A stretch of DNA of 64,000 bases, from the NCBI RefSeq assembly GCF_029227855.1, contig NZ_CP074356.1. One strand, written 5' to 3'. The stretch is from Escherichia coli (GTDB taxonomy: Bacteria > Pseudomonadota > Gammaproteobacteria > Enterobacterales > Enterobacteriaceae). Under the pieces are notes generated by a model, which made no database searches, was not told the origin of the DNA, and saw only the letters and a list, made by a program, of their open reading frames with translations. The number at the start of each line of letters is the position of its first letter. Position 1 is the first letter of the stretch. The position numbers and the translations under genes were made by a program. Below are positions 25,595 to 34,035 of the stretch, piece by piece.

Positions 25595-27244
25595 TTAACC
25601 GCGCCACGCTTTATAGCGGTTAATCAGACCATTGGTCGAGCTATCGTGGCTGCTGATTTCTTTATCATCTTTCAGCTCTGGCAGAATACGGTTTGCCAGT
25701 TGTTTACCCAGCTCCACGCCCCACTGGTCGAAGGTGAAGATGTTCAGGATCACGCCCTGAGTAAAGATTTTGTGCTCATACAGCGCAATCAACGCCCCCA
25801 GGCTGAACGGAGTGATTTCGCGCAGCAGGATGGAGTTGGTCGGGCGGTTACCTTCGAACACTTTGAACGGCACCACGTAGTCAAGCGTTGCCGGATCTTT
25901 ACCCTGATCGCGATATTCCTGCTCAACCACTTCGCGGGATTTACCAAACGCCAGCGCTTCGGTCTGGGCGAAGAAGTTAGACAGCAGTTTCTGGTGGTGA
26001 TCAGAGAGCGGGTTATGGGTGATAGCCGGGGCGATGAAATCGCACGGTACCATTTTGGTTCCCTGGTGGATCAGCTGGTAGAACGCGTGCTGACCGTTAG
26101 TGCCTGGTTCACCCCAGATAATCGGGCCAGTCTGGTAATCCACAACGTTACCGTTACGGTCAACATACTTACCGTTGGACTCCATATTGCCCTGCTGGAA
26201 GTACGCCGCGAAACGGTGCATATACTGGTCATACGGCAGAATCGCTTCAGTTTCCGCACCAAAGAAATTGTTGTACCAGATGCCAATCAGCGCCAGCAGG
26301 ACAGGCAGGTTTTTCTCGGCAGGCGTGGTGGAGAAATGCTTGTCCATTGCGTGTGCGCCAGAAAGCAGTTCAACGAAGTTATCAAAGCCGATGGAGAGAA
26401 CAATCGACAGGCCAATCGCTGACCACAAAGAGTAACGGCCGCCGACCCAGTCCCAGAACTCGAACATGTTGGCAGTATCAATACCAAACTCGCCAACGGC
26501 TTTGGCATTGGTGGAAAGCGCCGCAAAGTGTTTTGCAACGTGTTTTTCATCACCTGCCGCTTTCAGGAACCAGTCACGCGCGCTATGGGCGTTGGTCATA
26601 GTTTCCTGAGTGGTGAAGGTTTTAGATGCTACCAGGAACAGCGTGGTTTCCGGGTTTACTTTTTTCAGCACTTCAGCGATGTGAGTCCCATCGACGTTAG
26701 AAACAAAGTGCATGTTCAGGTGATTTTTGTACGGACGCAGTGCTTCGGTCACCATGTACGGGCCGAGGTCAGAACCACCGATCCCGATGTTCACTACGTC
26801 AGTGATTGCTTTGCCGGTATAACCCTTCCACTCACCGGAGATAATCGCTTCCGAGAAGGTTTTCATCTTCTCCAGCACCGCGTTGACTTCCGGCATTACG
26901 TCTTTGCCATCAACCAGAATCGGGGTATTGCTACGGTTACGCAGCGCTACGTGCAGCACGGCGCGGTTTTCAGTGCGGTTGATCTTCTCGCCAGAGAACA
27001 TCGACTTAATCGCGCCCGCCAGATCGCACTCTTTCGCCAGATCCTGTAATTTCGCCAGCGTCTCTTCAGTGATGCGGTTTTTGGAGTAATCCACCAGCAT
27101 CTGATCGTCGAAGGTTGCGGAGAACTTAGAAAAACGATCGCCGTCTTTAGCAAAAAGATCGGCGATCGTAACGTCTTTCATTTCATCGAAGTGTTTCTGT
27201 AGTGCCTGCCAGGCAGCGGTCTGCGTTGGATTGATGTTTTTCAT
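25595..27244 (-). CDS. pgi: Glucose-6-phosphate isomerase
   Basis: Second Met of ORF 25595..27250: [34 protein letters not shown]..., 549 aa. Confidence 0.97.
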
Positions 27245-27469
27245 TAGCAATACTCTTCTGATTTTGAGAATTGTGACTTTGGAAGATTGTAGCGCCAGTC
27301 ACAGAAAAATGTGATGGTTTTAGTGCCGTTAGCGTAATGTTGAGTGTAAACCCTTAGCGCAGTGAAGCATTTATTAGCTGAACTACTGACCGCCAGGAGT
27401 GGATGAAAAATCCGCATGACCCCGTCGTTGACAACCGCCCCGCTCACCCTTTATTTATAAATGTACTAC

Positions 27470-27745
27470 CTGCGCTAGCGCAGGCCAGAAGAGGCGCGTT
27501 GCCCAAGTAACGGTGTTGGAGGAGCCAGTCCTGTGATAACACCTGAGGGGGTGCATCGCCGAGGTGATTGAACGGCTGGCCACGTTCATCATCGGCTACA
27601 GGGGCTGAATCCCCTGGGTTGTCACCAGAAGCGTTCGCAGTCGGGCGTTTCGCAAGTGGTGGAGCACTTCTGGGTGAAAATAGTAGCGAAGTATCGCTCT
27701 GCGCCCACCCGTCTTCCGCTCTTCCCTTGTGCCAAGGCTGAAAAT
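27470..27745 (+). promoter_or_regulatory. lysC leader containing the lysine riboswitch (L box); boundaries approximate
   Basis: Long GC-rich structured 5' UTR directly upstream of lysC with conserved-looking segments (agaggcgc..., ...gggggtgcatcgccgaggtgattgaacggctgg...); the E. coli lysC leader is an established lysine riboswitch. Confidence 0.65.
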
Positions 27746-27768
27746 GGATCCCCTGACACGAGGTAGTT

Positions 27769-29118
27769 ATGTCTGAAATTGTTGTCTCCAAATTTGGCGG
27801 TACCAGCGTAGCTGATTTTGACGCCATGAACCGCAGCGCTGATATTGTGCTTTCTGATGCCAACGTGCGTTTAGTAGTCCTCTCGGCTTCTGCTGGTATC
27901 ACTAATCTGCTGGTCGCTTTAGCGGAAGGGCTGGAACCTGGCGAGCGATTCGAAAAACTCGACGCTATTCGCAACATCCAGTTTGCCATTCTGGAACGTC
28001 TGCGTTACCCGAACGTTATCCGTGAAGAGATTGAACGTCTGCTGGAGAACATTACTGTTCTGGCAGAAGCGGCGGCGCTGGCAACGTCTCCGGCGCTGAC
28101 AGATGAGCTGGTCAGCCACGGCGAGCTGATGTCGACCCTGCTGTTTGTCGAAATCCTGCGCGAACGCGATGTTCAGGCACAGTGGTTTGATGTACGTAAA
28201 GTGATGCGTACCAACGACCGATTTGGTCGTGCAGAGCCAGATGTAGCCGCGCTGGCGGAACTGGCCGCGCTGCAGCTGCTCCCACGCCTCAATGACGGCT
28301 TAGTGATCACCCAGGGATTTATCGGTAGCGAAAATAAAGGTCGTACAACGACGCTTGGCCGTGGAGGCAGCGATTATACGGCAGCCTTGCTGGCGGAGGC
28401 TTTACACGCATCTCGTGTTGATATCTGGACCGACGTCCCGGGCATCTACACCACCGATCCACGCGTAGTTTCCGCAGCAAAACGCATTGATGAAATCGCG
28501 TTTGCCGAAGCGGCAGAGATGGCAACTTTTGGTGCAAAAGTACTGCATCCGGCAACGTTGCTACCCGCAGTACGCAGCGATATCCCGGTCTTTGTCGGCT
28601 CCAGCAAAGACCCACGCGCAGGTGGTACGCTGGTGTGCAATAAAACTGAAAATCCGCCGCTGTTCCGCGCGCTGGCGCTTCGTCGCAATCAGACTCTGCT
28701 CACTTTGCACAGCCTGAATATGCTGCATTCTCGCGGCTTCCTCGCGGAAGTTTTCGGCATCCTCGCGCGGCATAATATTTCGGTAGACTTAATCACCACG
28801 TCAGAAGTGAGCGTGGCATTAACCCTTGATACCACCGGTTCAACCTCCACTGGCGATACGTTGCTGACGCAATCTCTGCTGATGGAGCTTTCCGCACTGT
28901 GCCGGGTGGAAGTAGAAGAAGGTCTGGCGCTGGTCGCGTTGATTGGCAATGACCTGTCAAAAGCCTGCGGCGTTGGCAAAGAGGTATTCGGCGTACTGGA
29001 ACCGTTCAACATTCGCATGATTTGTTACGGCGCATCCAGCCATAACCTGTGCTTCCTGGTGCCCGGCGAAGATGCCGAGCAGGTGGTGCAGAAGCTGCAT
29101 TTTAATTTGTTTGAGTAA
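27769..29118 (+). CDS. lysC: Lysine-sensitive aspartokinase III
   Basis: 449 aa ORF MSEIVVSKFGGTSVADFDAMNRSADIVLSDANVRLVVLSASAGITNLL... Confidence 0.97.
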   Translation: MSEIVVSKFGGTSVADFDAMNRSADIVLSDANVRLVVLSASAGITNLLVALAEGLEPGERFEKLDAIRNIQFAILERLRYPNVIREEIERLLENITVLAEAAALATSPALTDELVSHGELMSTLLFVEILRERDVQAQWFDVRKVMRTNDRFGRAEPDVAALAELAALQLLPRLNDGLVITQGFIGSENKGRTTTLGRGGSDYTAALLAEALHASRVDIWTDVPGIYTTDPRVVSAAKRIDEIAFAEAAEMATFGAKVLHPATLLPAVRSDIPVFVGSSKDPRAGGTLVCNKTENPPLFRALALRRNQTLLTLHSLNMLHSRGFLAEVFGILARHNISVDLITTSEVSVALTLDTTGSTSTGDTLLTQSLLMELSALCRVEVEEGLALVALIGNDLSKACGVGKEVFGVLEPFNIRMICYGASSHNLCFLVPGEDAEQVVQKLHFNLFE

Positions 29119-29262
29119 TATTTCCCTACTGGCGTATAACGCTCACCGATTGTTATACGCCATCCTCACTGAAAACATAGATTAAATAATATCTGAAAAG
29201 CAAAATCACTCCTGTAGAACAGTATTATAATCACCGAAAAATATCATTTAACAGGAGTGTTA

Positions 29263-30189
29263 ATGGCTACTTTAATGGAAAAAGATGCACTTTTAAACGG
29301 AGCCAGTCAGTGCATCGCGTTTTTATCAAATATCATTGATAATTGCTCAGTTTCGTCGCATCAGGATTCAGGCGATGCTCTCAAGCGATTAGTCAGCTAT
29401 CGCGATTATCTTTATTCTACCCCCGCTGAACTTGTTGATTTTACACAAGGTAAGATTCTCCTTCAGCAGGTAAGAACTCAATATCAGCATGAATTCAACA
29501 ATACTACGCATTCAGAAAATAAAGCATCTTTTGATTCTATTTGGCAGCGTCTGACAAATCATGAAGTCACACCGCAACAGCATCCCATTGGTTTTGTTTT
29601 AGGTGGGCAACCCGGAGCAGGTAAATCATCTCTGATTGAATTAGCCAAAAGAGAGACAAAAGATAATATAATGATTATTAACGGTGATGATTTTCGATTT
29701 CTACACCCTGATTTTAATTATATCTACCAAAATTATGGGGATGATTTTGTTACCCATACAGCGAAATTTTCCGGCGAAACGGTCGAACGTGCAATTGAGA
29801 GAGCGATAGTCAGTAAACTCAACATTGTTGTCGAAGGAACATTTCGTAATGCCGCGACGCCGTTACAAACATTAAAAAAACTCAAAGATGCAGGCTACCA
29901 AACAGAAGTCATGATAAAAACAACCTCAGCGGCATTAAGCTGGGAAAGCACCAATGAACGGTATAGTAAGGACAAAGAGGCGGGAAATATTGCCCGAAAA
30001 GTGGATAAAAACCACCATGATATCGTCACCGGTTTGCTGGCAGAAAATGCCCGCAAGGTGTTTGCTTCGAACCTGTCAGATAAGTTTGCGGTGTATTCGC
30101 GTGAGAAGATGATATTTAGTTCACAAGCGGCAACGAATGACGATATTGCAACACTTATACAGAATGAAATCAGCGGGAATACACAATAA
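29263..30189 (+). CDS. Zeta-toxin-like P-loop kinase with an N-terminal extension of about 100 aa; accessory, AT-rich
   Basis: Walker A GGQPGAGKS, Walker-B-like hhhhEG (NIVVEGT), overall zeta/PezT-like layout; ATG at 29263 preceded by aggag; the ORF track extends to a GTG at 29257; markedly lower GC than lysC. Confidence 0.7.
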   Translation: MATLMEKDALLNGASQCIAFLSNIIDNCSVSSHQDSGDALKRLVSYRDYLYSTPAELVDFTQGKILLQQVRTQYQHEFNNTTHSENKASFDSIWQRLTNHEVTPQQHPIGFVLGGQPGAGKSSLIELAKRETKDNIMIINGDDFRFLHPDFNYIYQNYGDDFVTHTAKFSGETVERAIERAIVSKLNIVVEGTFRNAATPLQTLKKLKDAGYQTEVMIKTTSAALSWESTNERYSKDKEAGNIARKVDKNHHDIVTGLLAENARKVFASNLSDKFAVYSREKMIFSSQAATNDDIATLIQNEISGNTQ

Positions 30190-30224
30190 TAATAAGAGCT
30201 GATGGCGTGAAATAACGCCGGGCT

Positions 30225-31025
30225 TTATGCCCGGCGCATTACCGTCTGGTACATTAAGCTATCCAGTTCCTTAACGTCCCCTTCTCTGCTATCCGGTAAC
30301 AGCGGTGGAATTTCCCCACGCGCCTGTTCCGCACGAATAAACGCATGTAACAATGGACGGCGCGGACCATATTCCGCTTCTCCTGCGCGCTGTTTACGTT
30401 CCAGTAATTCGTCTATTTCTGCACGTAACGGCGCATCAAGTTCGCTTCCCGCCAGTAACTCAGCAAAGCGCATTGGCGGCACGCCTTTTCCCGCTTCGAC
30501 CCAGCGCACGGCCAGCAGCGGACGCAGCACGTAAAAGTATTTTTTCAGTCGAACTTCATCGCCCTGCAAATATCCGCGGAAGTTTTTCTGCGCCATCGAA
30601 TAGTAATGCCAGCGCGCACGCAGCGGAGAAAACCACATTGGGACCATTGCCTTAAGCGCCGTTATCGTTTCTTCATCTTGTTGATAGACCACCGGAGAAT
30701 CCAGCCATTCTATCAGCGTCGGGTTCGCGCCTTTCAATAATCCCAGCGCCTTACGCCACTCCCAACCGGAAACATCTAACTCGTCGTCGATGGGCAGCTC
30801 GATAACATCGCGCGGCGGCTCCACCCGCAGATACCATTCCAGCGGGTGAACATACAAAAACCGTACATCGTAGTCGCTGTCGGGCGAGGCAAACCCCCAG
30901 CCGCGGCTCCCGGATTCACAGGCATACAGCACTTTCACGCCGTAGCGCCGTTCTATTTCTTTTAACTGCTGCGATACCCGTTCGCGCATCGCAGCACTGA
31001 CTCCATTTAATGGCATGTTACTCAC
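30225..31025 (-). CDS. Pol-beta-superfamily nucleotidyltransferase-fold protein (minimal NTase plus helical C-terminal region); accessory
   Basis: Motif YACESGSRGWGFASPDSDYDVRF (G[GS]...D.D NTase signature); starts at GTG 31025 overlapping the upstream stop (GTGA) or at ATG 31016. Confidence 0.65.
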   Translation of the reverse strand: MSNMPLNGVSAAMRERVSQQLKEIERRYGVKVLYACESGSRGWGFASPDSDYDVRFLYVHPLEWYLRVEPPRDVIELPIDDELDVSGWEWRKALGLLKGANPTLIEWLDSPVVYQQDEETITALKAMVPMWFSPLRARWHYYSMAQKNFRGYLQGDEVRLKKYFYVLRPLLAVRWVEAGKGVPPMRFAELLAGSELDAPLRAEIDELLERKQRAGEAEYGPRRPLLHAFIRAEQARGEIPPLLPDSREGDVKELDSLMYQTVMRRA

Positions 31026-32149
31026 CCTTTGATATTAACCAACCCATGCAGAACCTGATCCAGACCGCCAAATACAGAGATGTTATCGATCCGCTCAGCC
31101 ACTCTCTCCAGCGTTTCTAGCTCTTTTAAACGCAACGCTACCGGATTGTTCTCCATGACTTTGGCGGTGTTCAGTAACGAGCGCGTCGCTGCCGTTTCTT
31201 CACGTCGGCGAATCACATTCGCCTGCGCAGATTTCTCCGCCTCAACCAGCTGCGCAAGGATATTTTTCATATCGCCAGGCAGGACGATATCTTTCACCCC
31301 TAATGAAGCAATCTCCATACCAAATGGCAACATGCGCGATTTCACCTGTTCGCTGACAACGTCATCAATGACCTGTTTATCTTCCAGCAGTTCATCCAGC
31401 GTACGAGTACCTACCGCTTCACGCAGGGCAAATTGCAATTCCCGATACAAATGATCAATCGGCTTCGTTAACTGACTAAATGCCAGCAACACGTCGCTGT
31501 AGCGCCAGTTAGCGGCGAGATTAATCCGCAGATTGACCTTATCTTTCGTTAAGATTTCTTGCCCGCTGACTTCCAGTACCTGCAAGCGGGTGTCGACAAC
31601 TTCAGCCTCAACCAGATGATTTATTTTCCAGTATGCTGTCAGCCCCGGCGGTAACAGCGCCTGCGTTTCACCATCGATTTTCAGCACGCCTACATGCCAG
31701 GCCGGAACCTGCACCGTGAGTATCGCATCGCGGCCTTTAACTGCCCCTTTGCGCCGTGGTTGCAATACCGCATTCATCACCTCCGTTTGTACCTGGACTT
31801 GCTGCGTATTCATCCGCACCAGTGTCAAATCATCTTCTACACGCCAGTACAAACGGCGCGTTGATGGCGGCAGAATCTCCAGCAAAATACCGTCCATATA
31901 CAACGCCCCGGCTTCAATCTCCGACAAGTCTGCCACCAGGCAATATTTCTCCACCCAATCAGGCTGAAAGCGGCGCAAATAATCCGCCAGCACGTCGGGA
32001 ACTTCGCTGCCATCGAGCGTAATCAGCAAGACTTCTGGCGTATTTAACCAGGGTAAAAGATGCTCGCCTGCATGCAGCACTTTGTAGTAATCGCCATTTC
32101 TGGAGAGTAATGCCAGCTGATCTTTTCTTACGCTTATTTTCTTAATCAT
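31022..32149 (-). CDS. SPFH/band-7 (stomatin/prohibitin/flotillin-like) domain protein without an obvious N-terminal transmembrane segment; accessory
   Basis: C-terminal half (...LTKDKVNLRINLAANWRYSDVLLAFSQL...GMEIASLGVKDIVLPGDMKNILAQLVEAEKSAQANVIRRREE...) resembles SPFH domains; RBS-like aagga 6 nt upstream of ATG at 32147-32149. Confidence 0.65.
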   Translation of the reverse strand: MIKKISVRKDQLALLSRNGDYYKVLHAGEHLLPWLNTPEVLLITLDGSEVPDVLADYLRRFQPDWVEKYCLVADLSEIEAGALYMDGILLEILPPSTRRLYWRVEDDLTLVRMNTQQVQVQTEVMNAVLQPRRKGAVKGRDAILTVQVPAWHVGVLKIDGETQALLPPGLTAYWKINHLVEAEVVDTRLQVLEVSGQEILTKDKVNLRINLAANWRYSDVLLAFSQLTKPIDHLYRELQFALREAVGTRTLDELLEDKQVIDDVVSEQVKSRMLPFGMEIASLGVKDIVLPGDMKNILAQLVEAEKSAQANVIRRREETAATRSLLNTAKVMENNPVALRLKELETLERVAERIDNISVFGGLDQVLHGLVNIKG

Positions 32150-32678
32150 TATCTATTCCTTGCTTAACAGCCGTCGCGGAAGCAGACACGAAGCGACAGG
32201 GGAATTCCCTTTTGCCTGTTACCCGGCATCTTTATCGGCGACGTTATCGGGGATCGCTGACTGCGCAATCCCTCACTTTTTATTTAATAAGTTAAAACCA
32301 GTATTCATTTCAGGAATGAATGTGGGAATCGAACCCATAATTGGCGTCAAAGGCTGACGGAACACGCCCGGAAAACAGCCTGGCCGTTCCTGGTGTGCCG
32401 ACGGGGTTTGACCCCCTTTGTAATTCAGTTTCAACGCGTACGAGATATTGCGAGAAGCGTGCCAGAATTGAGAAAAAATTATTAACCAAATGAAAAATAA
32501 AGATTTAATAAATTATTTTTGTTTGTAGAGGGAAAACTTTTCGCTAAATTTGTATCTGTATTTATCGTCAATTATCAAGAAAGATAAATATTTAAGAAGA
32601 GAACAAAGGAATATTATCAGTTCAGCTCGCAAACGAATTCCCGTACACTGAACTCTCTGGCTCACTGAGGGCACCATC

Positions 32679-32951
32679 ATGGCACTCCCCCGTATTACCC
32701 AAAAAGAGATGACTGAACGCGAGCAGCGTGAACTTAAAACACTGCTGGATCGGGCGCGGATTGCGCATGGTCGCGTACTGACCAACTCCGAAACCAACAG
32801 CATTAAGAAAGAGTACATCGATAAATTAATGGTCGAGCGTGAGGCTGAAGCGAAAAAAGCCCGCCAGTTGAAGAAAAAGCAGGCTTATAAACCGGATCCT
32901 GAAGCGTCATTTAGCTGGTCAGCAAATACGTCGACGCGCGGCAGGCGCTGA
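32679..32951 (+). CDS. yjbD: DUF3811 small protein YjbD
   Basis: 90 aa ORF MALPRITQKEMTEREQRELKTLLDRARIAHGRVL... Confidence 0.9.
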   Translation: MALPRITQKEMTEREQRELKTLLDRARIAHGRVLTNSETNSIKKEYIDKLMVEREAEAKKARQLKKKQAYKPDPEASFSWSANTSTRGRR

Positions 32952-33824
32952 TTAGCGCCCCTTCTTTTTACGCCCCGGAGAGGTAAAACGCTTACCGTTG
33001 GACGCCGGGCGACCGCCTTTTTCCGCCGTTTTTTCCATCTTAACGACTGGACGTTTGATGCCCGCTGTTTTCGGTTTGGCCTTCACTTTAGGTTTTGCCT
33101 CGGAAGAGGAATTTTCGATGAGCTTAAAGAGGTCGATTAACTCATCATCAGTTAAATCGCGCCACTCACCCAGCGGAATGCCGCTTAAGCTGACGTTCAT
33201 AATGCGCGTACGTTCCAGCTTTTTCACTTCATAGCCGAAATGCTCGCACATGCGCCGGATCTGACGGTTCAGCCCCTGCACCAGGGTAATGCGGAAGACA
33301 AACGGCGCTTCTTTTTTGACTTTGCACTTTTTCGTCACCGTCCCGAGGATCGGCACCCCCGCCCCCATACCACGAATAAATTCATCGGTAATCGGTTTAT
33401 CGACCGTCACCAGATACTCTTTCTCATGATCGTTACCCGCACGGAGGATCTTATTCACCAGATCGCCGTGATTGGTGAGGAAAATCAGCCCCTGGGAGTC
33501 TTTATCCAGGCGGCCAATCGGGAACACGCGTTTGCTGTGGTTAACGAAATCGACAATGTTATCGCGCTCGCCATCTTCGGTGGTGCTGACAATACCGACG
33601 GGCTTGTTCAGGGCGATAAGTACCAAATCTTCGGCTTCCCGAGGCTCAATCAACTGACCGTTTACTTTCACAACGTCGCCGGGTTTCACCTGATCGCCAA
33701 TGGTGGCTCGCTTGCCATTAAGGAACACATTGCCTTGCTCGATATAGCGATCCGCTTCGCGGCGTGAGCAAATTCCGCTTTCGCTGATGTATTTATTTAA
33801 ACGGACTGATGAGTCGGGCAGCAT
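32952..33824 (-). CDS. rluF: 23S rRNA pseudouridine synthase RluF
   Basis: 290 aa ORF with S4 domain and RsuA-type catalytic region ([16 protein letters not shown]); Lys-rich C-tail. Confidence 0.95.
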
Positions 33825-34035
33825 AAATTCTCCTGTAAAAAACGGAATATACCGTACCTTTGGGTTGATAAAAAATAGTCATGAGCGAACTATTTGTTAT
33901 TTCCATTGGCTTGAATTCGTTACCTGCTCAAATCACTTTCCAGAAGCAATGTGCGACATCGTGAGCCATGTCAGTAAGTGGTTAAATTCGCAGTGGTAGC
34001 ATGCCTCCCGTGATTTCTTACTAACCGGAGAAGTA

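What the first reader, a model, noticed from the sequence alone, without database searches (positions are those of the whole stretch)
30213..30238. Convergent-gene hairpin overlapping the NTase stop codon
Palindrome cgccgggctttatgcccggcg lies between the zeta-like gene (stop 30189) and the convergent NTase gene (stop 30225-30227) and includes the latter's stop codon. It may act as a bidirectional terminator or as an RNA stability element for both transcripts. No clear T-run follows on either strand, so it is not a canonical intrinsic terminator.
Basis: seen in the sequence. Interest (0 to 1): 0.3.

Follow-up and report, generated by a model that had tools for sequence, protein, structure and literature searches.

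The report
Terminator hairpin ending an NTase operon
The palindrome is a real, conserved RNA hairpin that most likely ends the two-gene slipin–nucleotidyltransferase transcript in an accessory island of E. coli; it is an ordinary transcription terminator whose only oddity is that the gene's stop codon sits in its loop.

Summary
A perfect 8-bp G+C-rich stem (30216-30223 / 30229-30236) with a 5-nt loop (30224-30228) lies between a PezT/zeta-like gene (+) and a convergent RlaP-family nucleotidyltransferase gene (-). The NTase stop codon (30225-30227) is in the loop.

In the NTase sense the stem gains a ninth G·U pair and is followed by UUAUUUCAC.

The hairpin is single-copy and occurs only in the 1630 of 5426 E. 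coli genomes that carry the NTase. It stays with the slipin–NTase module when the neighbouring cargo changes from the zeta gene to a 15.7-kb phage-tail cluster. Its stem is invariant while three loop positions and the stop codon vary. One relative has a compensatory G:C→A:U change and a wobble change that pairs only in the NTase sense. Orthologous loci in other genera carry unrelated hairpins at the same place.

Best reading: a Rho-independent terminator and 3'-end protector of the slipin–NTase operon, probably sensitive to the terminating ribosome. In the zeta sense it is not a canonical terminator. No transcript data were available. The finding is ordinary and of low interest.

The parts
30216..30223 (-). 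Hairpin arm CGCCGGGC on the + strand. In the NTase-sense RNA it is the 3' arm (GCCCGGCG) and is non-coding.
30224..30228 (-). 5-nt loop (+ TTTAT; NTase sense AUAAA). It contains the NTase stop codon at 30225-30227. It varies among E. coli alleles (AUAAA, GUGAU, GUGAA), always with an in-frame stop.
30229..30237 (-). Hairpin arm GCCCGGCG(C) on the + strand. In the NTase sense it is the 5' arm (G)CGCCGGGC, which forms the last three sense codons CGC CGG GC(A) = Arg-Arg-Ala. Base 30237 makes a G·U pair with 30215 in the NTase sense only.
30207..30215 (-). U-rich tail of the NTase-sense hairpin: UUAUUUCAC. It is kept as UUAUUUUAC, UUAUUUAUG or UGAUUUAUU in other arrangements.
30225..31025 (-). RlaP-family (PF10127) nucleotidyltransferase gene, the last gene of the operon. 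RefSeq starts it at the ATG 9 nt downstream of the GTG.
   Evidence: (E 1.5e-94)
31022..32149 (-). Slipin / SPFH (Band 7) gene. Its stop overlaps the NTase GTG start (GTGA), so the two genes form one transcription unit that ends at the hairpin.
29257..30189 (+). Convergent zeta/PezT-like gene (probable ATG at 29263). It is low-GC cargo (36-44% against about 54% in the flanks). Its stop lies 26 nt before the hairpin.
   Evidence: (Zeta_toxin 1.3e-40)

Best explanation
The palindrome encodes the 3'-terminal stem-loop of the slipin–RlaP-NTase operon on the minus strand. Transcribed in that sense it forms a 9-pair G+C-rich hairpin followed directly by UUAUUUCAC, which is the anatomy of a Rho-independent terminator. 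The same hairpin would shield the finished mRNA from 3'→5' exonucleases. Its peculiarity is that the 5' arm is the last three codons of the NTase and the stop codon lies in the loop. A ribosome terminating at that codon covers both arms. The hairpin can therefore fold co-transcriptionally only when the leading ribosome lags behind RNA polymerase. Termination is thus expected to be partial and sensitive to translation, and read-through would run antisense into the zeta gene. Transcribed in the zeta sense, the hairpin lacks a U-tract and is not a canonical terminator. There it can at most pause or position polymerases, or act as the exonuclease stop for transcripts ended further downstream, for example by Rho in the C-rich, untranslated antisense-NTase RNA. 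What is shown: the structure, its strand asymmetry, its conservation and its linkage to the NTase module. What is inferred: actual termination, ribosome sensitivity, and any role for the + strand.
For: (1) Anatomy. Searches show 8 perfect pairs plus a G·U pair in the NTase sense and a tail UUAUUUCAC. The terminator score is +15.4 in the NTase sense and -22.3 in the zeta sense; two T-run hairpins elsewhere in the window score +17 and +26. (2) Linkage to the NTase module. In about 205 E. coli genomes the zeta gene is replaced by a 15.7-kb phage-tail cluster, and similarity to the window resumes at 30206-30210, that is at AAATAA plus the hairpin. (3) Conservation pattern. The hairpin is single-copy and present in exactly the 1630 of 5426 genomes that have the NTase. 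There are two major alleles (972 and about 622 genomes) differing by 3 substitutions, all inside the 5-nt loop, including TAA↔TGA, with no stem change. Across 12 distinct sequences all 108 pair cells are paired. One pair shows a G:C→A:U double change and one a C:G→U:G change in Escherichia sp. MOD1-EC7003. There the encoded tail changes from RRA to HRV, so the constraint is not on the protein. That variant folds at -16.2 kcal/mol in the NTase sense but only -12.8 (7 pairs) on the other strand. (4) Functional analogy. 13 of 32 orthologous loci from other taxa carry a contiguous hairpin of at least 8 bp starting within -15 to +40 nt of the NTase stop, against 3 of 640 internal control positions (Fisher p = 2e-16). 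Their sequences are unrelated: canonical A-tract/hairpin/T-tract in Klebsiella, REP-like in Citrobacter, and stop-in-loop again in two Bacillaceae. (5) Literature. In E. coli a terminator 5 bp after a stop codon dropped from about 90% to below 10% efficiency because of the ribosome (PMC4824070). Stable stem-loops without U-tracts mark and protect Rho-dependent 3' ends (PMC6061677).
Against: No transcript data exist for this locus, because K-12, where Term-seq and SEnd-seq were done, lacks the island. The tool's consensus terminator scan did not list the hairpin; once the G·U pair is counted in the stem, only 4 of the next 8 bases are T. The U-tract is interrupted (UUAUUUCA). Two variants score about 0 on the same scale (UGAUUUAUU -1.3; the A:U variant +0.2). 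That score uses a formula recalled from memory with modern energies, and it also fails the K-12-type lysC terminator. If E. coli ribosomes are closely coupled, a stop codon inside the loop predicts poor co-transcriptional termination, so the element may work mostly after transcription. Covariation rests on a single lineage, and control (a) reaches the observed value in 37 of 500 shuffles. Template switching within a quasi-palindrome could create a 'compensatory' pair in one event without selection.
Confidence: 0.68

Rival explanations
1. It is a true bidirectional terminator. The one hairpin stops both the slipin–NTase transcript and the zeta transcript (or the tail-fibre-assembly transcript in the other arrangement). 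On the + strand it would act through hairpin-positioned head-on RNA polymerase collisions rather than a U-tract.
For: It is the only strong hairpin in the 35-nt gap between convergent genes. In tail-type strains the convergent gene stops only 5-6 nt from it. The + strand has an A-rich run before the stem. A class of E. coli bidirectional terminators between convergent genes does not resemble intrinsic terminators, and a nascent stem-loop is needed to fix the collision site (bioRxiv 10.1101/2022.10.23.513370). In Klebsiella and relatives, where lysC directly faces the NTase, the hairpin in this position is symmetric (A-tract and T-tract) and plausibly serves both genes.
Against: The + strand tail is CATTACCG and scores -22.3. 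The wobble pairs (G·U in all 12 sequences, U·G in L006) become A·C mismatches on the + strand. The hairpin travels with the NTase module, not with either + strand neighbour. Expression levels, on which collisions depend, are unknown.
Confidence: 0.2
2. It is purely a post-transcriptional stability element. Transcription on both strands ends elsewhere (Rho-dependent, in untranslated antisense RNA), and exonucleases trim back to the hairpin, which sets the steady-state 3' ends.
For: A stop codon inside the loop predicts strong repression of co-transcriptional termination by the ribosome in E. coli (PMC4824070). Stem-loops without U-rich tails define and protect Rho-dependent 3' ends, with rut sites just downstream (PMC6061677). 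RNA downstream of the hairpin is C>G on both strands: C/G is 1.4-1.7 on the + strand and 1.1-1.7 on the minus strand, and the window's 90th percentile is 1.56.
Against: The minus-strand U-rich tail is retained in four different sequence contexts. A mere exonuclease barrier would not need it. The C/G enrichment is modest. The two roles are not mutually exclusive.
Confidence: 0.15
3. It is a boundary or recombination site of a cargo slot. The hairpin and the neighbouring motif would mark where alternative cargo (the zeta gene or the phage-tail cluster) is exchanged by a site-specific mechanism.
For: Similarity between cargo types breaks at 30206-30210, right next to the hairpin. The motif TGGCGT(N0-3)ATAAC occurs three times in 64 kb, all at the borders of the low-GC zeta cassette, against 0.16 expected. 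A second conserved hairpin (29130-29162) sits at the other border.
Against: No recombinase or transposase lies in or beside the island. The hairpin is single-copy per genome. Species without cargo have unrelated hairpins at the same place. Breakpoints at the edges of selected functional units are what homologous replacement would leave anyway. Two of the three motif copies are simply the two arms of one hairpin.
Confidence: 0.05
4. It is a chance palindrome with no function.
For: About 1.4 perfect G+C-rich 8-bp hairpins are expected per 64 kb of shuffled sequence. One genome tolerates an IS1414 insertion that splits the hairpin.
Against: The stem is invariant while the loop is hypervariable across two ancient alleles and two cargo contexts. 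There is a compensatory change with a changed peptide tail. Unrelated hairpins recur at the same position in orthologous loci.
Confidence: 0.04

Closest known systems
Rho-independent (intrinsic) terminators of E. coli, e.g. lambda tR2 as studied by Li et al. 2015 (PMC4824070)
   Same: A G+C-rich stem of 8-9 pairs, a 5-nt loop and a U-rich tail directly after the stem in the NTase sense. It sits at the end of an operon and protects the 3' end.
   Different: The U-tract is interrupted (UUAUUUCA). The 5' arm is coding and the stop codon is in the loop. In E. coli that placement is expected to let the terminating ribosome suppress hairpin folding; tR2 placed 5 bp after a stop codon had an efficiency below 10%.
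Terminators that abut or overlap stop codons in species with 'runaway' transcription (Bacillus subtilis; Johnson et al. 2020 as summarised in PMC7858274)
   Same: The hairpin begins before the stop codon. The two Bacillaceae orthologues of this NTase (L041, L046) also have the stop codon in the loop.
   Different: The host here is E. coli, where transcription and translation are thought to be more closely coupled, so the same geometry should make termination leaky rather than efficient.
Bidirectional terminators between convergent genes (Ju et al. 2019; Wang et al. 2022 preprint)
   Same: A single stem-loop in a very short gap between convergent genes.
   Different: The canonical overlapping type has a U-tract on both strands, and here only the minus strand has one. 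The collision type cannot be recognised from sequence.
Protective 3' stem-loops of Rho-dependent transcripts (Dar & Sorek 2018, PMC6061677)
   Same: On the + strand it is a stable stem-loop not followed by U's, with C>G RNA downstream.
   Different: Rho dependence is untested, and on the minus strand a U-rich tail is present.

Membership tests
Intrinsic (Rho-independent) terminator, NTase (minus) sense | Stable G+C-rich stem-loop (stem of about 5-14 bp, loop 3-8 nt) | tested here: met
   8 Watson-Crick pairs plus 1 G·U pair, loop of 5 nt, -19.8 kcal/mol
Intrinsic (Rho-independent) terminator, NTase (minus) sense | U-rich tract immediately 3' of the stem | tested here: inconclusive
   UUAUUUCAC has 5 of 8 U after the 8-bp stem, but only 4 of 8 if the G·U pair is counted, so the consensus scan did not list it. 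The weighted score is +15.4, within the range of clear terminators in the window. The tail stays U-rich in 4 sequence contexts.
Intrinsic (Rho-independent) terminator, NTase (minus) sense | Lies at the 3' end of a transcription unit | tested here: met
   It follows, and overlaps, the last gene of the overlapping slipin–NTase pair, and the next gene is convergent. Orthologous loci have hairpins at the same place.
Intrinsic (Rho-independent) terminator, NTase (minus) sense | Transcript 3' ends map to the U-tract; factor-independent release in vitro | not testable with these tools
   No transcript data. The island is absent from K-12.
Intrinsic terminator, zeta (+) sense / canonical bidirectional terminator | U-rich tract after the stem on the + strand as well | tested here: not met
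   The tail is CAUUACCG, with 2 U in the first 8 bases; the score is -22.3.
Collision-type bidirectional terminator (Ju 2019 / Wang 2022) | Stem-loop between convergent, co-expressed genes, with overlapping 3' ends on both strands | not testable with these tools
   The geometry fits. 3' ends and expression are unknown.
Protective stem-loop of Rho-dependent transcripts | Stable stem-loop without a U-tract, followed by a C-rich, G-poor untranslated region | tested here: inconclusive
   On the + strand there is no U-tract. Downstream C/G is 1.4-1.7, about the 90th-95th percentile of the window. Bicyclomycin sensitivity is untestable here.
REP / BIME dispersed palindromes | Many dispersed copies per genome | tested here: not met
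   A 40-nt query finds 1 place per genome (maximum 2), only in the 1630 genomes that carry the NTase. There is one copy in the window.
Known structured RNA family (Rfam) | Match at or above a family's gathering score | tested here: not met
   The only overlapping hit is SorX at 19.5 bits against a gathering score of 46.6, E = 0.46.

The most novel reading that the evidence does not exclude
The stop-codon-in-loop hairpin could be a translation-gated switch. When ribosomes finish the NTase close behind RNA polymerase, the hairpin cannot fold, and transcription reads through as antisense RNA across the convergent PezT/zeta-like toxin gene, which has no visible epsilon/PezA antitoxin gene beside it. 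When translation lags, termination occurs and the toxin mRNA is left unopposed. Toxin expression would then be tied to the translational state of the cell through a terminator rather than through a protein antitoxin.
Probability: 0.06. Interest if true: 0.5.

Novelty: new member of a known kind. Interest (0 to 1): 0.12.

Why it matters
The finding matters little beyond annotation. It assigns a 3' end to the slipin–RlaP operon, which is present in about 30% of complete E. coli genomes. It shows that the hairpin belongs to that operon and not to the zeta-like gene. It also provides a natural E. coli example of a terminator whose stop codon lies in the loop, which could be used to test how strongly ribosome–polymerase coupling suppresses termination in vivo. 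The surroundings are of more biological interest than the hairpin itself. They comprise a cargo slot between lysC and the NTase that holds either a PezT-like gene or a tailocin-like tail cluster, and an ancestral slipin–RtcB–RlaP RNA-repair module.

Tried and rejected
(1) The consensus terminator scan did not list the hairpin on either strand. The cause is the G·U extension of the stem, which shifts the 8-nt tail window; this is not evidence of absence. (2) Rfam at a permissive E-value gave only a sub-threshold SorX hit (19.5 bits against 46.6) over the hairpin, judged to be chance similarity to a terminator. (3) PADLOC found no defence-system model for the NTase or the slipin, and only a marginal hit (E = 8e-4) for the zeta-like protein. 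(4) A best-local-hairpin free-energy scan of orthologous 3' ends was uninformative. Internal coding controls folded almost as well (median -15.5 against -17.6 kcal/mol), and A/T tracts were absorbed into stems. An earlier perfect-stem version missed bulged stems. It was replaced by the test for at least 8 contiguous base pairs. (5) The REP/BIME idea was rejected because the element is single-copy. (6) The terminal inverted repeat found by the repeat finder around the zeta cassette (I4) looked like one of many chance pairs. The gapped-motif search shows it is non-random, but two of the three copies are the arms of one hairpin, so the matter is left unexplained. (7) ARAGORN found no tRNA gene in 27000-34000, so the tRNA-like T-arm fragment near 32322-32338 is unconfirmed. 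(8) The d'Aubenton-Carafa score was computed from a formula recalled from memory with Turner-2004 energies. It misclassifies the K-12-type lysC terminator, so it is used only for the contrast between strands.

Full report
**1. The observation**

The window is E. coli chromosome around pgi–lysC–yjbD–rluF. Between lysC (27769-29118, +) and yjbD (32679-32951, +) lies a three-gene accessory island:
- a zeta/PezT-like gene (29257-30189, +; Pfam Zeta_toxin 1.3e-40; NCBIfam PezT 7.5e-38, below the equivalog cut-off);
- an RlaP-family nucleotidyltransferase (30225-31025, -; PF10127, 1.5e-94);
- a slipin/SPFH gene (31022-32149, -; Band_7, 3.9e-26).

The slipin stop overlaps the NTase start (GTGA), so the two genes form one unit.

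The palindrome is exactly as described. CGCCGGGC (30216-30223), TTTAT (30224-30228) and GCCCGGCG (30229-30236) give 8 perfect pairs and a 5-nt loop. The NTase stop codon (complement of 30225-30227) lies in the loop, and the last three codons (Arg-Arg-Ala) form one arm. The fold is -19.0 kcal/mol on the + strand and -19.8 kcal/mol on the - strand, where G30237·U30215 adds a ninth pair.

Such perfect G+C-rich hairpins are only mildly over-represented in the window: 4 distinct against 1.36 ± 1.4 in shuffles. The other three carry obvious T-runs.

**2. Correction to the description**

On the minus strand the stem is followed at once by TTATTTCAC (30215→30207). The tool's consensus scan missed it because the G·U pair lengthens the stem and shifts the tail window.

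A d'Aubenton-Carafa-type score (formula from memory, so indicative only) gives +15.4 in the NTase sense and -22.3 in the zeta sense. Two clear terminators elsewhere in the window score +17 and +26.

**3. Which gene does the hairpin belong to?**

- The NTase 3' end is present in 1630 of 5426 complete E. coli genomes.
- 1425 of these have the zeta arrangement.
- About 205 have a 'hypothetical protein' in place of the zeta gene.

In strain CDE6306 that protein is the last gene of a 15.7-kb cluster inserted between lysC and the NTase. The cluster comprises a Mor activator, holin, lytic transglycosylase, tail sheath, tube, tape measure, baseplate and fibre genes. No head or packaging genes are annotated.

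Similarity to the window resumes at 30206-30210, that is at 'AAATAA' plus the hairpin. The hairpin and its minus-strand T-tract therefore travel with the slipin–NTase module whatever lies opposite.

A 40-nt query shows the element is single-copy per genome and confined to NTase-bearing genomes, so it is not a REP/BIME-type repeat.

**4. Conservation pattern**

Two major E. coli alleles (972 and about 622 genomes) differ by three substitutions in the 40 nt around the hairpin. All three are inside the 5-nt loop. They include TAA↔TGA, and an in-frame stop is always kept. The 16 stem bases are unchanged. Both loop types occur with both cargo types.

In 12 distinct sequences (E. coli, Escherichia sp. 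MOD1-EC7003, Superficieibacter, IMG/VR contigs) all 108 pair cells are paired. Escherichia sp. has a G:C→A:U double change and a C:G→U:G change. The encoded tail becomes His-Arg-Val, so the constraint is on pairing and not on the peptide. Orthologues in other genera end 2-3 residues earlier. That variant folds at -16.2 kcal/mol in the NTase sense but only at -12.8 kcal/mol (7 pairs) in the other sense, which is directional evidence for the minus strand.

Caveats:
- The covariation rests on one lineage.
- Shuffle control (a) reaches the observed value in 37 of 500 trials.
- Template switching in a quasi-palindrome can produce a paired change in one step.

**5. Comparative context**

In Citrobacter, Klebsiella, Kosakonia, Phytobacter and others the module sits at the same place and is convergent directly on lysC. 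Often an RtcB RNA-ligase gene lies between slipin and NTase. This matches the Pfam description of RlaP as RNA-ligase-associated and a recent biochemical study (PMC12776372).

The E. coli hairpin sequence is shared only with Escherichia sp. and Superficieibacter. Other genera have unrelated hairpins at or just after the NTase stop:
- canonical A-tract/stem/T-tract elements in Klebsiella;
- REP-like palindromes in Citrobacter;
- stop-codon-in-loop hairpins in two Bacillaceae.

13 of 32 loci have a contiguous hairpin of at least 8 bp starting within -15 to +40 nt of the stop, against 3 of 640 internal control positions (p = 2e-16). A 3'-end hairpin is thus a recurrent, replaceable feature of this gene, as expected of terminators.

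**6. Mechanism**

The best-supported reading is an intrinsic terminator and 3'-end protector for the slipin–NTase mRNA.

The geometry adds a twist. With the stop codon in the loop, a terminating ribosome covers both arms. Li et al. showed in E. coli that moving a stop codon from 28 to 5 bp before tR2 cut termination from about 90% to below 10%, and that removing translation restored it (PMC4824070). Terminators next to stop codons are typical of species whose polymerase outruns the ribosome (PMC7858274). Termination here should therefore be partial and dependent on ribosome lag, and read-through would produce antisense-zeta RNA. This step is inference.

In the zeta sense the hairpin is not a canonical terminator. 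Two non-canonical roles remain open. It could protect Rho-terminated 3' ends: PMC6061677 describes this role, and the downstream + strand RNA is untranslated with C/G of 1.4-1.7, around the window's 90th-95th percentile. Or it could position polymerase collisions between convergent genes (preprint 10.1101/2022.10.23.513370). Neither can be tested without 3'-end mapping.

**7. Rivals**

- A cargo-slot or recombination-site role is suggested by the breakpoint next to the hairpin and by the motif TGGCGT(N0-3)ATAAC. The motif occurs three times in 64 kb, all at the cassette borders, against 0.16 expected. However, there is no recombinase, species without cargo have other hairpins, and two of the three copies are the arms of one hairpin.
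- A chance palindrome is disfavoured by the conservation pattern.

**8. Verdict**

The element is an unannotated instance of a well-known kind. Its interest is low, at 0.12. The most novel reading that remains, a translation-gated terminator controlling antisense RNA against an antitoxin-less PezT-like gene, has a probability of about 6%.

Noticed in passing
window 29130-29162: A second conserved hairpin lies 12 nt after the lysC stop: TGGCGTATAAC / 11-nt loop / GTTATACGCCA, -17 kcal/mol, z = -5.8, with no T-run on either strand. It is kept with an A:T→G:C compensatory change in Escherichia sp. and with three compensatory pairs in the tail-type strain CDE6306 (GGTGAATAGCG/CGCTATTCACC). Strains without the island instead have a canonical lysC terminator (GGCCCGGAAG...TTTCGGGCC plus a T-run).
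   Followed up: partly
window 29130-29140, 29152-29162, 30203-30216: The motif TGGCGT(N0-3)ATAAC occurs three times in the 64-kb window (0.16 expected), all at the two borders of the low-GC zeta cassette. The third copy overlaps the T-tail of the finding's hairpin. It could be a remnant of how the cargo was inserted, or partly coincidence.
   Followed up: partly
L004 25330-41015 (E. coli CDE6306); also L007, L013, L045, L048-L054: In about 205 E. coli genomes, and in Superficieibacter and Phytobacter massiliensis, the slot between lysC and the NTase holds a 15.7-kb cluster of Mor activator, lysis and contractile-tail genes. No head or packaging genes are annotated. It looks tailocin-like or like a defective Mu/P2-type prophage. 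IMG/VR lists these stretches as viral contigs that end at the NTase.
   Followed up: partly
L010 1641-4792; also L011, L015, L017-L020, L023, L034, L045: In many Enterobacteriaceae the module next to lysC is slipin–RtcB–RlaP (a 408-aa RtcB-family ORF between the two genes). The E. coli island has lost RtcB, and slipin and NTase now overlap. About 70% of complete E. coli genomes lack the module at this site (3796 of 5426 give no match to the NTase 3' end); in the two such strains examined, lysC abuts yjbD directly.
   Followed up: partly
L060 2500-3860 (E. coli JNEC-KY172): One genome has an IS1414 (IS256-like) element inserted inside the hairpin, with an 8-bp target duplication TCACGCCC. The insertion leaves the NTase ORF and stop codon intact but separates the two arms, making a natural hairpin knock-out.
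   Followed up: yes
window 29207-29263 and 30187-30195: The Shine-Dalgarno region of the zeta-like gene (CAGGAGTG, 29252-29259) can pair with CACTCCTG (29207-29214) upstream of a TATAAT-like box. This might silence translation from lysC read-through RNA. The gene ends in three tandem TAA codons. It is annotated as frameshifted in some strains (Z1323HEC0399, O145:NM FWSEC0002). No antitoxin-like ORF is evident beside it.
   Followed up: no
window about 32322-32338 (minus strand): GTGGGAATCGAACCCAT is the complement of a tRNA T-arm-like sequence (GGGTTCGATTCCC) in the non-coding stretch between slipin and yjbD. It may be a relic of an integration site. ARAGORN and Rfam report no tRNA there.
   Followed up: partly
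L005 (Collinsella sp. MAG contig) and L007 (Bacillota MAG contig): Two metagenome-assembled genomes assigned to Gram-positive taxa carry short contigs whose encoded island proteins are 97-100% identical to those of this E. coli island. This is almost certainly binning contamination.
   Followed up: no
window 27481-27677: The lysine riboswitch upstream of lysC was detected (Rfam RF00168, 99.5 bits). It is known and already annotated in RefSeq.
   Followed up: yes
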